Shown here in pieces: positions 61,209 through 62,368 of a stretch of DNA of 64,000 nt. Source of the DNA: Lachnospiraceae bacterium Phil5 (GTDB taxonomy: Bacteria > Bacillota > Clostridia > TANB77 > CAG-508). The notes below the pieces were generated by a model that was not told the origin of the DNA, did no database searches, and worked only from the letters and a program-made list of their open reading frames with translations. The position numbers and the translations under genes were made by a program. How positions within the stretch are numbered: position 1 is the first letter of the stretch; every line of letters begins with the position of its first letter. The stretch lies in NCBI GenBank assembly GCA_002633185.1, contig NWBM01000003.1:36107-100106 (forward strand), read 5' to 3'.

Positions 61209-62368
61209 CTATTCAATTCACACTCAAGTTCAACCATCCTTCTACCTTTCAAAACAGTTAGCTTCACCCTATCTCCCACATTCTTCTTATATATATATTC
61301 TCTTAAATCACACATTTTATCTAATTCAACATCATCAATTTTAACAATAACATCTCCAATTTCCAGTCCACTTCTATATGCTGGTGAATCAAGCGAAATT
61401 TGTGCTACATAAATTCCTGTATCAAATTTCAAATTTGTGTTTATATATGGAATTACATTTTTATCATAAGCAAAAATGCCAATTGCTGCCTCATCAAATT
61501 GCCCATCATTTTCAAATCTTTCTATTATTGGCTTAACTACATTAATTGGAATTGCAAAACCCATTCCATCAGCTGATGTGATTTTTACTGTATTTATTCC
61601 AATTACTGCCCCATTGATGTTTATAAGCGGTCCACCACTATTACCAGGATTTATTGTTGCATCTGTTTGTATTAAGTTTGAATAATAGATATCTTTATCA
61701 TTTTCTTTAAAAACCAAAGCTCTATTTGTTGCACTTACTATTCCAGATGTAACTGTTTTTTGGAATTCAAATCCTATTGGATTGCCTATTGCATAAACAA
61801 CATCTCCTACTAATACTGAATCTGAATCACCAAGAATTGCAACATCAATAAATTTCATATTCACCCTTAAAATTGATAAATCCAAATCCGTGTCAGACCA
61901 CGCAACAACAGCATTATACTGTTTTCCATCTTCCATTGTTATATAACAAGTGCTGCCCTTACTTCCAGATACATGTTCATTTGTTAGAATATATCCCTTT
62001 TCTGAAACAATTAATCCACTCCCTATCCCCATTTTGTTAACACCATCTGTTAGAAAAACCGAATTACCGTTGTCTTTTAATTTTGAAATTCCAACTACAC
62101 TTTTCATTGAATTTTCAAGCATTTGAGATATGTTATTCATATCGATAATTTCGTTTGAATCTGTTGTACTTATTGCAAGTCTTTGTGCTTCAACTTTGTC
62201 TGAATTCTTTGAGATGTTTTTTGGAGGTGTCCCCAAAAAAATATTTTTTGGGACACCTCCAAAAAACATCCCCCAAAAAAGAAACAGCACTAAAATTATT
62301 ACAATAATAATCCATTTTATCTTTTTTACCTTATTTGTTTTATGACCCTCCTCATAAGAAATTTTCAA
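61199..62368 (-). CDS. htrA: HtrA/DegP-family serine protease with a PDZ domain; a repeat-derived insertion follows the TM anchor
   Basis: TNEHV, D and GNSGGPL catalytic triad context; C-terminal PDZ; TTG start with an AGGAG RBS. Confidence 0.9.
   Translation of the reverse strand: MKISYEEGHKTNKVKKIKWIIIVIILVLFLFWGMFFGGVPKNIFLGTPPKNISKNSDKVEAQRLAISTTDSNEIIDMNNISQMLENSMKSVVGISKLKDNGNSVFLTDGVNKMGIGSGLIVSEKGYILTNEHVSGSKGSTCYITMEDGKQYNAVVAWSDTDLDLSILRVNMKFIDVAILGDSDSVLVGDVVYAIGNPIGFEFQKTVTSGIVSATNRALVFKENDKDIYYSNLIQTDATINPGNSGGPLININGAVIGINTVKITSADGMGFAIPINVVKPIIERFENDGQFDEAAIGIFAYDKNVIPYINTNLKFDTGIYVAQISLDSPAYRSGLEIGDVIVKIDDVELDKMCDLREYIYKKNVGDRVKLTVLKGRRMVELECELNRKK
62213..62270. repeat. Inverted pair of palindromic repeat units lying in frame inside htrA
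   Basis: GATGTTTTTTGGAGGTGTCCCCAAAAAAATATTTTTTGGGACACCTCCAAAAAACATC; encodes [19 protein letters not shown] on the minus strand. Confidence 0.9.

What the first reader, a model, noticed from the sequence alone, without database searches (positions are those of the whole stretch)
62213..62270. Palindromic repeat pair inserted in frame inside the htrA coding sequence
A 58-nt inverted pair of repeat units lies within htrA, just after the N-terminal TM anchor. It is translated without stops as ...[26 protein letters not shown].... The same peptide strings (FGGVPK, GTPPKN) appear in the spurious ORFs that cross other copies. In-frame colonisation of a protein linker by a palindromic element parallels the Rickettsia palindromic elements. 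It implies the repeat is, or was, mobile and tolerated in coding DNA.
Basis: partly seen in the sequence, partly recalled or inferred. Interest (0 to 1): 0.65.

Follow-up and report, generated by a model that had tools for sequence, protein, structure and literature searches.

The report
Palindromic repeat pair within htrA gene
Two inverted copies of a short dispersed DNA repeat form a 58-base hairpin that is read in frame inside a membrane-anchored protease gene of an uncultured gut Clostridia bacterium, lengthening a floppy linker; this is a real but already known kind of event, in which selfish palindromic DNA is tolerated inside a gene.

Summary
Window 62213-62270 is a near-perfect palindrome with 27-nt arms, 26/27 complementary, and a 4-nt spacer. 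It consists of two inverted copies of a ~27-31-nt unit, (A)GATGTTTTTTGGAGGTGTCCC(C)AAAAA. The window holds 13 units against 0.02 expected; the other 11 are intergenic.

The pair lies inside the htrA ORF (61199-62368, minus strand) and encodes residues 34-52. These sit at the end of the predicted TM helix (13-35) and in a low-confidence linker (37-75), well before the protease domain (from 116). The AGGAG ribosome-binding site and TTG start are identical in the closest orthologue's contigs.

That orthologue (88% identity) carries one unit. The window has exactly 27 nt (9 codons) more, which is a second, inverted unit. Orthologues at 68% identity or less have none. An independent assembly and contigs from two other runs show the same palindrome.

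The family is abundant in this species (word depth about 50-100x the flanks) and sparse or variant in two related lineages. It is strongly extragenic: 1 of 10 loci is coding, in 87% coding DNA. It is stop-free in all six frames.

I read it as an undescribed REP/REPIN-like element carried as a tolerated passenger, by analogy with Rickettsia palindromic elements. The mobilising enzyme and the direction of change (gain or loss) remain unresolved.

The parts
62213..62270 (.). 58-nt palindrome made of two inverted repeat units. It encodes HtrA residues 34-52 ([19 protein letters not shown]).
   Evidence: Arms and complementarity. The mRNA hairpin folds at -45.1 kcal/mol, z -8.2. As ssDNA it folds at -29.2 kcal/mol, z -8.3. 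It is stop-free in all six frames, as are only 0.035% of the window's 58-mers.
62241..62271 (-). Unit in coding sense (first arm in the mRNA, CCC subtype). It is shared with the sister orthologue.
   Evidence: nhmmer 36.3 bits. It aligns to the single unit of L002-L004.
62211..62240 (+). Unit antisense to htrA (second arm in the mRNA, CCCC subtype). It corresponds to the 27 nt (about 62216-62242, placement ambiguous by a few nt) that are absent from the sister orthologue.
   Evidence: nhmmer 36.7 bits. The alignment with the sister shows a 27-column gap.
61199..62368 (-). htrA coding sequence: an S1C serine protease of 389 aa with a TTG start.
   Evidence: ORF. Trypsin_2 at residues 116-258 and PDZ at 313-384. 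H132, D163 and the GNSGGP motif with S244 are invariant among 50 homologues. The identical protein is present in a second assembly.
62264..62332 (-). Codons 13-35, the predicted N-terminal transmembrane anchor helix. The last two residues are encoded by the repeat.
   Evidence: AlphaFold helix 13-35; residues 37-75 have pLDDT below 50 and no secondary structure.
62377..62381 (-). AGGAG ribosome-binding site, 8 nt upstream of the TTG start.
   Evidence: Read directly from the sequence. It is invariant in L002-L004. 191 of the 200 nt upstream are identical to the sister.
2221..2250 (-). Family copy, intergenic, between two clp-type AAA+ genes.
5363..5430 (.). Inverted doublet of units (5363-5393 minus, 5400-5430 plus) between convergent genes. 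Here the GATG heads face inward, the opposite arrangement to htrA.
   Evidence: The hairpin folds at -47.5 kcal/mol.
10847..10876 (-). Family copy, intergenic. A possible decayed partner lies at 10975-10999(+).
32697..32727 (+). Family copy, intergenic, just upstream of the promoter-like region of the PBP gene.
39282..39405 (.). Inverted doublet (39282-39312 minus, 39374-39405 plus) flanking a hairpin downstream of the 1176-aa ORF 39408-42938, taken as rpoC.
47092..47123 (-). Family copy just upstream of the rpoB promoter. This site also holds a unit in related lineages B (canonical) and C (variant pair).
47674..47702 (+). Family copy 16 nt after the galE stop codon. It is absent at this site in lineages B and C.
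50208..50238 (-). Family copy between convergent genes. Its extended stem overlaps the last codons and the stop of the SDR gene. No unit is found at this site in L022 or L024.
52158..52189 (+). Family copy, intergenic, of a longer variant shared with the copy at 2221.

Best explanation
The 58-nt palindrome is a doublet of a previously undescribed short palindromic repeat. The unit is about 27-31 nt: an AGATG head, a T-run, the invariant core GGAGGTGTCCC, and an A-run. The family behaves like REP/REPIN-type miniature elements. It is abundant in this species, almost exclusively extragenic, found as singlets and inverted doublets in either orientation, and variable in copy number and position between close relatives.

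One unit entered the juxtamembrane linker of htrA before this species split from its nearest sampled relative. The two lineages now differ by exactly one further inverted unit of 27 nt, or 9 codons.

The insertion is tolerated for three reasons:
- the unit has no stop codon in any of the six frames;
- the indel is a multiple of three;
- it sits at the end of the TM helix and in a disordered, length-variable linker, about 60 residues before the protease fold.

The ribosome reads through it, so the protein gains [18 protein letters not shown].

What is shown: the presence, the reading frame, the start codon, the one-unit indel, the extragenic bias and the differences in abundance between lineages.

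What is inferred: that the family spreads by transposition on single-stranded hairpin DNA using a trans-acting enzyme (not found here); that the htrA copy is a neutral passenger; and that the second arm was gained in the window's lineage, which I put at about 55%, rather than lost in the sister.
For: Over-representation and a sharp family boundary:
- 13 copies against 0.02 expected.
- Profile scores of 29.7-38.8 bits for the 13 units, then nothing above 7 bits.

Extragenic bias:
- 1 of 10 loci is coding, although 87% of the window is coding. P = 7.5e-8 under random placement.
- Three further units lie in the 10 kb beyond the window, all intergenic.

Doublets:
- There are four inverted doublets: 5363/5400, 39282/39374, 62211/62241 and L029 2100/2214.

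The indel and the orthologues:
- The difference from the 88% orthologue is a clean 27-nt indel of one unit.
- Orthologues at 68% identity or less have no unit.

Lineage differences:
- Word depth at the repeat is about 50-100x the flanks in runs X2, X4 and X1.
- Depth at the repeat is zero in runs X25-X27, which hold lineage B.
- In 13.9 kb of lineage C that is syntenic to a stretch where the window has four units, there is only one site, and it holds a variant pair, TTTTTAGTYAGTGTCYCCAAA.
- Family members with the same GATGTTTT head occur in other metagenome contigs, L014, L016 and L018.

Tolerance in coding DNA:
- The unit and the pair are open in all six frames, as are only 2.9% of 27-mers and 0.035% of 58-mers in the window.
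- The linker has pLDDT below 50, and Trypsin_2 starts at residue 116.

Start codon.

Independent confirmation of the sequence.
Against: - No transposase or RAYT-like gene was found among the 41 window ORFs scanned against Pfam. The rest of the genome could not be read.
- There is no target-site duplication and no conserved 5' GTAG.
- Intergenic alignments with relatives are too diverged to show clean empty sites. At the 50213 site the spacer has about the same length with and without the unit.
- The units are nearly identical, with no continuum of decay. Selection on a functional motif would also produce this.
- Gain versus loss of the second arm cannot be polarised, because no outgroup carries the element.
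- Translation through the hairpin is inferred from conservation of the ORF, not from protein data.
Confidence: 0.75

Rival explanations
1. Local origin. The second arm was not brought in by transposition. It arose on the spot, by fold-back or template-switch replication on the pre-existing single unit, which is itself a quasi-palindrome (TTTTTTGG-AGGTGTC-CCAAAAAA). Alternatively the ancestor already had the doublet, and the sister lost one arm by slippage between the CCAAAAAA direct repeats.
For: - The extra 27 nt are the reverse complement of the adjacent unit and abut it with only a 3-4-nt loop.
- ATC microhomology flanks the indel.
- Long perfect palindromes are known to be prone to deletion (established knowledge).
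- In REPIN theory singlets are decayed doublets (PMC3116915, abstract).
Against: - The two arms differ in the C-run subtype. The shared arm is CCC and the extra arm is CCCC, and both subtypes exist elsewhere in the family. This fits a separate donor copy better than self-copying, although homopolymer slippage could also explain it.
- The family is much more abundant in the window's species than in the relatives. This favours recent gain in this lineage.
Confidence: 0.3
2. Functional motif rather than selfish DNA. The unit would be a binding site for a protein (a nucleoid or regulatory protein, or a DNA-uptake receptor) or an RNA-level hairpin. The htrA copy would be kept because the -45 kcal/mol mRNA hairpin, or the internal Shine-Dalgarno-like GGAGGUG, modulates HtrA translation just after the signal-anchor codons.
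For: - The 12-nt core is identical in 12 of 13 copies, while the flanks vary.
- The core is conserved in contigs of other organisms.
- GGAGGTG is complementary to the 16S anti-Shine-Dalgarno sequence (established knowledge).
- Competence genes comEC and dprA lie in the window.
- The hairpin is very stable.
Against: - Orientation relative to transcription is mixed, and copies lie at convergent 3' ends, at tandem junctions and in divergent regions alike. This argues against a promoter-linked regulator or a strand-specific RNA element.
- The density of about 1 per 5 kb and the strong avoidance of coding DNA are unlike known uptake sequences.
- Close relatives manage with few copies or with variant copies.
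- The sister's htrA works with only a weak hairpin of -14.5 kcal/mol.
Confidence: 0.1
3. The repeat is not translated. The true htrA start would lie downstream of 62213, so the palindrome would sit in the 5' UTR.
For: An ATG lies inside the unit at residue 34, and the next in-frame ATG is at residue 76.
Against: - The ATG at codon 34 has GGGGG immediately adjacent and no spaced ribosome-binding site. In the sister this codon is GTG.
- Starting there or at M76 would remove the membrane anchor that all 60 orthologue N-termini inspected possess.
- The upstream TTG has a conserved AGGAG at 8 nt.
- The 33 upstream codons stay open, with conservative hydrophobic changes.
Confidence: 0.03
4. Assembly artefact: a chimeric fold-back created by the assembler.
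For: Palindromes can be produced by assembly errors, and Logan unitigs break inside the repeat.
Against: The identical sequence is in a second assembly. It is also in contigs of two independent runs that traverse arm 1, the loop and 22 nt of arm 2 without a mismatch. The ORF remains intact.
Confidence: 0.01

Closest known systems
Rickettsia palindromic elements (RPE)
   Same: These are palindromic repeats inserted in frame in protein-coding genes. They add a peptide at positions compatible with the fold and function of the host protein. They are also found in intergenic DNA (review PMC10969869, section 4.2).
   Different: - RPEs are about 100-150 bp, and about half of those in three families lie in ORFs. 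Here the unit is 27-31 nt and only 1 of 10 loci is coding.
- The host is different: an uncultured low-GC gut Clostridia bacterium, not an alphaproteobacterial endosymbiont.
- No sequence relationship was shown.
REP sequences / REPINs mobilised by RAYT transposases
   Same: - The units are short imperfect palindromes, strongly extragenic and highly similar within a genome.
- They occur as singlets and as inverted doublets that fold into long hairpins in ssDNA or mRNA.
- Their abundance is specific to a lineage (PMC3116915, abstract).
   Different: - No RAYT was found; only 64 kb plus about 10 kb of the genome could be read.
- The conserved 5' flank is AGAT(G), not GTAG.
- Doublet spacers here are very short (4-7 nt) or about 60-80 nt.
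- REPINs are described mainly in Proteobacteria and cyanobacteria.
- REPs are extragenic by definition, whereas this doublet is translated.
Bacterial MITEs that give in-frame fusions (intragenic ERIC, BOX, Anabaena MITEs)
   Same: They are small non-autonomous repeats that can sit inside ORFs and contribute peptide segments (PMC10969869).
   Different: Those elements are 100-400 bp, with terminal inverted repeats and usually target-site duplications. No duplication is visible here, and the whole element is shorter than a typical MITE terminal repeat.
DNA uptake sequences (Neisseria DUS, Pasteurellaceae USS)
   Same: They have a short invariant core of about 10-12 nt with AT-rich flanks. They occur in either orientation, often as inverted pairs at gene ends, and sometimes in coding DNA (my own knowledge).
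   Different: Uptake sequences occur about once per kb and are common in coding DNA. This family occurs about once per 5 kb and avoids coding DNA. It differs between close relatives. No sequence-specific uptake is known in Firmicutes.

Membership tests
REP / REPIN | Short (about 20-40 nt), over-represented imperfect palindrome | tested here: met
   The unit is 27-31 nt with a TTTTTTGG/CCAAAAAA stem around AGGTGTC. There are 13 copies against 0.02 expected.
REP / REPIN | Predominantly extragenic distribution | tested here: met
   9 of 10 loci in the window are intergenic, although 87% of the DNA is coding; P = 7.5e-8. The 3 units in L029 are also intergenic.
REP / REPIN | Inverted doublets that form hairpins and act as the replicative unit | tested here: inconclusive
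   Four inverted doublets with strong hairpins were seen. With units confined to about 13% of the DNA, this number of close pairs is not clearly above chance. One direct pair exists, in L014.
REP / REPIN | A cognate RAYT (Y1 HUH transposase) gene in the genome, usually flanked by REPs | not testable with these tools
   None of the 41 window ORFs scanned with Pfam is a transposase.
REP / REPIN | Conserved 5' GTAG tetranucleotide next to the hairpin | tested here: not met
   The aligned 5' flank is (A)AGAT(G). GTAG is present upstream of only a few copies.
Rickettsia palindromic elements | Element of about 100-150 bp that encodes a conserved peptide | tested here: not met
   The unit is 27-31 nt and the doublet 58 nt.
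Rickettsia palindromic elements | In-frame insertion in unrelated protein-coding genes at high frequency | tested here: not met
   One in-frame case (htrA) among 10 loci. The search of 1.84 billion representative proteins with the peptide found no other carrier, although that search has low sensitivity for this purpose.
MITE | Terminal inverted repeats plus target-site duplication | tested here: not met
   The whole unit is a single small hairpin. No direct duplication flanks any copy.
HtrA/DegP (S1C) protease (host gene) | Trypsin-like domain with a His-Asp-Ser triad, plus a C-terminal PDZ domain | tested here: met
   Trypsin_2 at 116-258 (E 3e-29) and PDZ_2 at 313-384. H132, D163 and GNSGGP with S244 are invariant in 50 homologues.
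DNA uptake sequence | About one copy per kb, frequent in coding DNA, shared across the genus | tested here: not met
   There is about one copy per 5 kb with avoidance of coding DNA. Copies are few or variant in lineages B and C.

The most novel reading that the evidence does not exclude
This would be a new class of ultra-short (27-nt) palindromic mobile unit in gut Clostridia. It is stop-free in all six frames, it recently amplified in one species, and it can colonise coding DNA. In htrA the resulting -45 kcal/mol mRNA hairpin pairs a perfect Shine-Dalgarno-like GGAGGUG with an anti-Shine-Dalgarno mimic immediately after the signal-anchor codons. That hairpin would have been co-opted as a translational pause or regulatory switch for membrane targeting or stress control of HtrA.
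Probability: 0.07. Interest if true: 0.7.

Novelty: new member of a known kind. Interest (0 to 1): 0.4.

Why it matters
This is a clean, dated example outside Rickettsia of a palindromic repeat being read as protein. Two close lineages differ by exactly one 27-nt unit inside an essential-type quality-control protease. Three properties of the element make coding insertion survivable: it is open in all six frames, its length is a multiple of three, and it landed in a linker.

It also flags an undescribed REP/REPIN-like family in uncultured low-GC gut Clostridia, a group in which such elements are poorly charted. The family differs sharply in abundance between near relatives, so it could serve as a strain marker and as a system for studying the dynamics of miniature elements. 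It also breaks short-read assemblies at every copy.

It does not reveal a new kind of biology.

Tried and rejected
- A genome-contig scan with HtrA returned only a 39%-identical Acutalibacteraceae locus.
- A metagenome scan for the 20-mer gave 15 loci. Most were chance matches or coding matches in unrelated DNA. Only L014, L016 and L018 look like family members.
- Scans of viral contigs and plasmids found no match.
- Rfam found only tRNAs.
- A literature search for the core sequence found only unrelated primers.
- Laying metagenome contigs at 80% likeness on window 32.5-52.4 kb, to look for empty sites, was too noisy. Conserved genes attract unrelated contigs, and unitigs break at the repeats.
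- The third protein search used a 57-aa concatenation of repeat-encoded peptides.
- A representative-library search with HtrA residues 29-58 returned two repetitive junk ORFs and nothing relevant.
- An attempt to read the htrA 5' end of lineage B from Logan contigs failed. That htrA is only about 79% identical at the DNA level, and its 5' part did not align. Its loose ends matched none of the loci already held.
- No RNA runs hold this gene.
- I considered and dropped several readings on the basis of sequence and distribution: a CRISPR remnant, a tRNA fragment, known Firmicute operator sites (CIRCE, CtsR, cre, Cheo box), and an intrinsic terminator. A single unit is AT-rich and folds no better than shuffled sequence (copy at 32706).
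Full report
**1. The observation**

Window 62213-62270 reads GATGTTTTTTGGAGGTGTCCCCAAAAA-AATA-TTTTTTGGGACACCTCCAAAAAACATC. The repeat finder reports two 27-nt arms, 96% complementary and 4 nt apart.

The arms are two copies of a unit that recurs through the window.
- The 19-mer TTTGGAGGTGTCCCCAAAA, with up to 3 mismatches, is found 13 times. Dinucleotide-preserving shuffles give 0.02.
- Twelve of the 13 copies carry the exact 12-mer TGGAGGTGTCCC.
- A profile built from the 13 units scores them at 29.7-38.8 bits. The next best hit scores 7 bits, so the family is sharply bounded and shows no continuum of decay.
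- The conserved part is about 27-31 nt, (A)AGATG-T6-GGAGGTGTCCC(C)-A5-6. Nothing beyond it is conserved.

**2. It is inside the coding sequence**

The palindrome lies in ORF 61199..62368 on the minus strand (389 aa).
- The protein has a Trypsin_2 domain at residues 116-258 and a PDZ domain at 313-384.
- H132, D163 and GNSGGP with S244 are invariant among 50 homologues.

The start codon is the TTG at 62368.
- An AGGAG site lies 8 nt upstream of it.
- This block is identical in three contigs of the nearest relative.
- 191 of the 200 upstream bases are identical to the sister. This is more conserved than the gene itself, where 125 of 1143 positions differ.
- All 60 orthologue N-termini that I inspected have a basic stretch followed by a hydrophobic anchor.
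- The 32 codons between the start and the repeat stay open in both lineages, with conservative hydrophobic replacements.

AlphaFold, run with a 50-sequence alignment, gives:
- a helix at residues 13-35;
- no structure and pLDDT below 50 for residues 37-75;
- a helix at 77-88, followed by the protease fold.

The repeat encodes residues 34-52, [19 protein letters not shown]. This is the last turn of the anchor plus the start of a disordered linker.

A downstream start is unlikely. The ATG at codon 34 has no spaced ribosome-binding site and is GTG in the sister. The next in-frame ATG is at codon 76 and would remove the anchor.

**3. It is not an artefact**
- An independent NCBI assembly (GCA_965313995.1, contig of 3851 bp, L020) encodes the identical protein.
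- That contig is collinear with window 58653-62503. Its only 8 mismatches lie at the contig ends, and the palindrome is identical.
- Logan contigs of two separate runs, X1 (a gut metagenome) and X2 ('organism A'), run from 61700 to 62265 without a difference. They cover arm 1, the loop and 22 nt of arm 2.

**4. Orthologues**

The closest orthologues are P0002 and P0003 (88% identity, 380 aa). They read ...FLG-VFFGGVQKNI-PQKIDKVEA.

At the DNA level they carry one unit, GTGTTTTTTGGAGGTGTCCAAAAAAATATC. They lack exactly 27 nt, which equal one further unit in inverted orientation.

The next orthologues, at 68% identity or less, have no unit. Their linkers between the anchor and the conserved VEAQRL motif vary in sequence and length. 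The DNA of P0004 shares at most a GGN-GTN-TTT-TTY stretch, and that is at a shifted position.

So at least one unit was in htrA before the two lineages split. They now differ by a discrete, in-frame indel of one unit. No orthologue has the peptide without the DNA repeat.

**5. What the family looks like**

*Distribution.* Apart from htrA, all 11 window copies are intergenic.
- They sit at convergent ends, at tandem junctions and in divergent regions.
- Seven are on the minus strand and six on the plus strand. Their orientation relative to the flanking genes is mixed.
- With 87% of the window coding, 1 coding locus out of 10 has P = 7.5e-8 under random placement.
- The 10 kb beyond the window's end, read from the second assembly (L029), add three more units, all intergenic.

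*Doublets.* Eight of the 16 units form inverted doublets.
- These are 5363/5400, 39282/39374, L029 2100/2214 and the htrA pair.
- In htrA the A-run ends face inward; in the other three the GATG heads face inward.
- The doublets fold into hairpins of -45 to -47 kcal/mol as RNA.
- A single unit is only a weak hairpin. For the copy at 32706 the z-score is -0.1.

*Open frames.* The unit and the 58-nt pair are free of stop codons in all six frames. Only 2.9% of 27-mers and 0.035% of 58-mers in the window share this property. This explains both why spurious ORFs cross every copy and why a coding insertion need not truncate the host protein.

**6. Differences between relatives**

- In runs of 'organism A' the word depth over the repeat is 50-100 times the flank: 1720 against 17.6 in X2, and 340 against 6.6 in X4. 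This suggests tens to about a hundred copies per genome.
- A GalE search gave syntenic contigs of two related lineages, B (GalE 90%; L021-L023) and C (GalE 89%; L024-L026). Lineage C comes from the same studies as the sister HtrA contigs.
- In 13.9 kb of lineage C, syntenic to a stretch where the window has four units, no canonical unit exists. One site, upstream of the rpoB promoter, holds an inverted pair of a variant, TTTTTAGTYAGTGTCYCCAAA.
- Lineage B has one canonical unit at that same site and none at the sites corresponding to 47680 and 50213.
- Runs that hold lineage B show zero depth over the repeat.
- Intergenic alignments are too diverged to show clean empty sites. At the 50213 site the spacer has the same length with and without the unit.
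- Members with the same head sequence occur in a few other metagenome contigs: L014 (a direct pair), L016 (an inverted pair) and L018, which carries the same sequence as lineage B at that site.
- There is no match in viral contigs or plasmids, in Rfam or in the literature by sequence.

**7. Interpretation**

The best reading is an undescribed REP/REPIN-like family. It consists of short palindromic units that are strongly extragenic, highly homogeneous, arranged as singlets and hairpin-forming inverted doublets, and amplified in one lineage. One locus happens to lie in a permissive part of a gene.

The mechanism of spread is inferred by analogy with REPINs (PMC3116915). It would be transposition of hairpin ssDNA by a trans-acting enzyme. 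No such gene is among the 41 window ORFs scanned, and the rest of the genome could not be read. The 5' flank is AGAT(G), not the GTAG of classical REPs, and there is no target-site duplication. I therefore do not file it as a REPIN, an RPE or a MITE. It works like them.

*Direction of the htrA indel.* This is open.
- For gain in the window's lineage: the family's amplification there, and the fact that the extra arm is of the CCCC subtype while the shared arm is CCC.
- For loss in the sister: the instability of long palindromes, the CCAAAAAA direct repeats that flank the indel, and the REPIN view that singlets are decayed doublets.
- I put gain at about 55%.

*Functional-motif reading.* This would be a protein-binding site, an uptake signal or a regulatory hairpin. 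The GGAGGUG core is a perfect Shine-Dalgarno match, paired in the doublet with an anti-Shine-Dalgarno-like CACCUCC. The reading is not excluded but is disfavoured by three things:
- the mixed orientation and the placement at 3' ends;
- the avoidance of coding DNA;
- the scarcity of the unit in close relatives, whose htrA carries only a weak hairpin of -14.5 kcal/mol.

**8. Comparison and novelty**

In-frame colonisation of genes by palindromic repeats is established for Rickettsia RPEs and is seen occasionally for ERIC, BOX and cyanobacterial MITEs (PMC10969869). The outcome here is the same. Four things differ:
- the element is four to five times shorter than an RPE;
- the host is an uncultured low-GC (30%) Clostridia bacterium from animal-gut metagenomes;
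- coding insertion is the exception rather than the rule;
- the locus captures a one-unit difference between near relatives.

This is a new member of a known kind. It is well supported and of moderate interest.

**9. Limits**
- The organism could not be named.
- Only about 74 kb of its genome was readable.
- No RNA or protein data exist for the gene.
- The two peptide-based searches for other coding insertions were uninformative.

Noticed in passing
window 30597-32161 (-): A comM/yifB-type Mg-chelatase-like gene is split into three overlapping ORFs. ORF 31265-32161 has ChlI plus Mg_chelatase positions 1-99, ORF 31054-31458 has Mg_chelatase 96-162, and ORF 30597-31004 has Mg_chelatase_C. This is a frameshifted pseudogene or a sequencing error. 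It lies next to dprA (29651-30604), and comEC is at 6868-9174.
   Followed up: no
window 47092-47702; L021 2023-3093; L024 11017-12750: The slot between galE and the rpoB promoter holds a different gene in each of three related lineages. The window has a 121-aa ORF, lineage B has a homologous 110-aa ORF, and lineage C has an unrelated 378-aa ORF. None has a Pfam hit. In the window the slot is bracketed by two inverted repeat units, like a cassette.
   Followed up: partly
window 32521-32687: A 167-nt element has 47-nt inverted arms that are 94% complementary, directly upstream of the repeat unit at 32697. The bin 32500-33163 has very high contig depth (about 340-540) in four different gut metagenomes. 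This suggests a widespread or multicopy sequence. There is no Rfam match.
   Followed up: no
L024 12234-12312 (= L025 4945-5023, L026 2689-2767): Lineage C carries an inverted pair of a variant unit, TTTTTAGTYAGTGTCYCCAAA, at the site where the window and lineage B have the canonical unit. Its htrA copy keeps the canonical GGAGGTGTCC core. This hints that intergenic copies turn over or are homogenised, while the coding copy is a fossil.
   Followed up: partly
window 62369-62576: The divergent htrA/dnaD intergenic region is 95.5% identical to the sister lineage, whereas the htrA coding DNA is about 89% identical. The regulatory region is unusually constrained.
   Followed up: no
window 50208-50250: The extended stem of the repeat copy overlaps the last codons and the stop of the SDR (FabG-like) gene. 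The C-terminal residue and the stop codon differ among lineages: F-TAG here, I-TAA in L024 and Y-TAA in L022. The element may have reshaped a gene end.
   Followed up: partly
window 10-2151, 2346-4706, 35161-37758: There are three Clp/Hsp100-type double-AAA+ genes within 38 kb, two of them adjacent. Only the third has a Clp_N domain.
   Followed up: no
L003 2561-6991 versus L004: In the same metagenome sample the sister htrA occurs in two contexts. One is followed by phage- or mobile-element-like genes (DUF3846, an HU-like protein, an HTH repressor). This suggests an element integrated next to htrA or the nearby tRNA in part of the population.
   Followed up: no
L029 2244-7830 and 8886-10832: Just beyond the window's end, the same species encodes a cohesin-domain protein, a 1486-aa protein with no Pfam hit, and an NRPS-like protein with Condensation and AMP-binding domains.
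   Followed up: no
window 6119-6460 (-): A HicB-family antitoxin-like ORF with no obvious HicA partner among ORFs of 90 aa or more.
   Followed up: no
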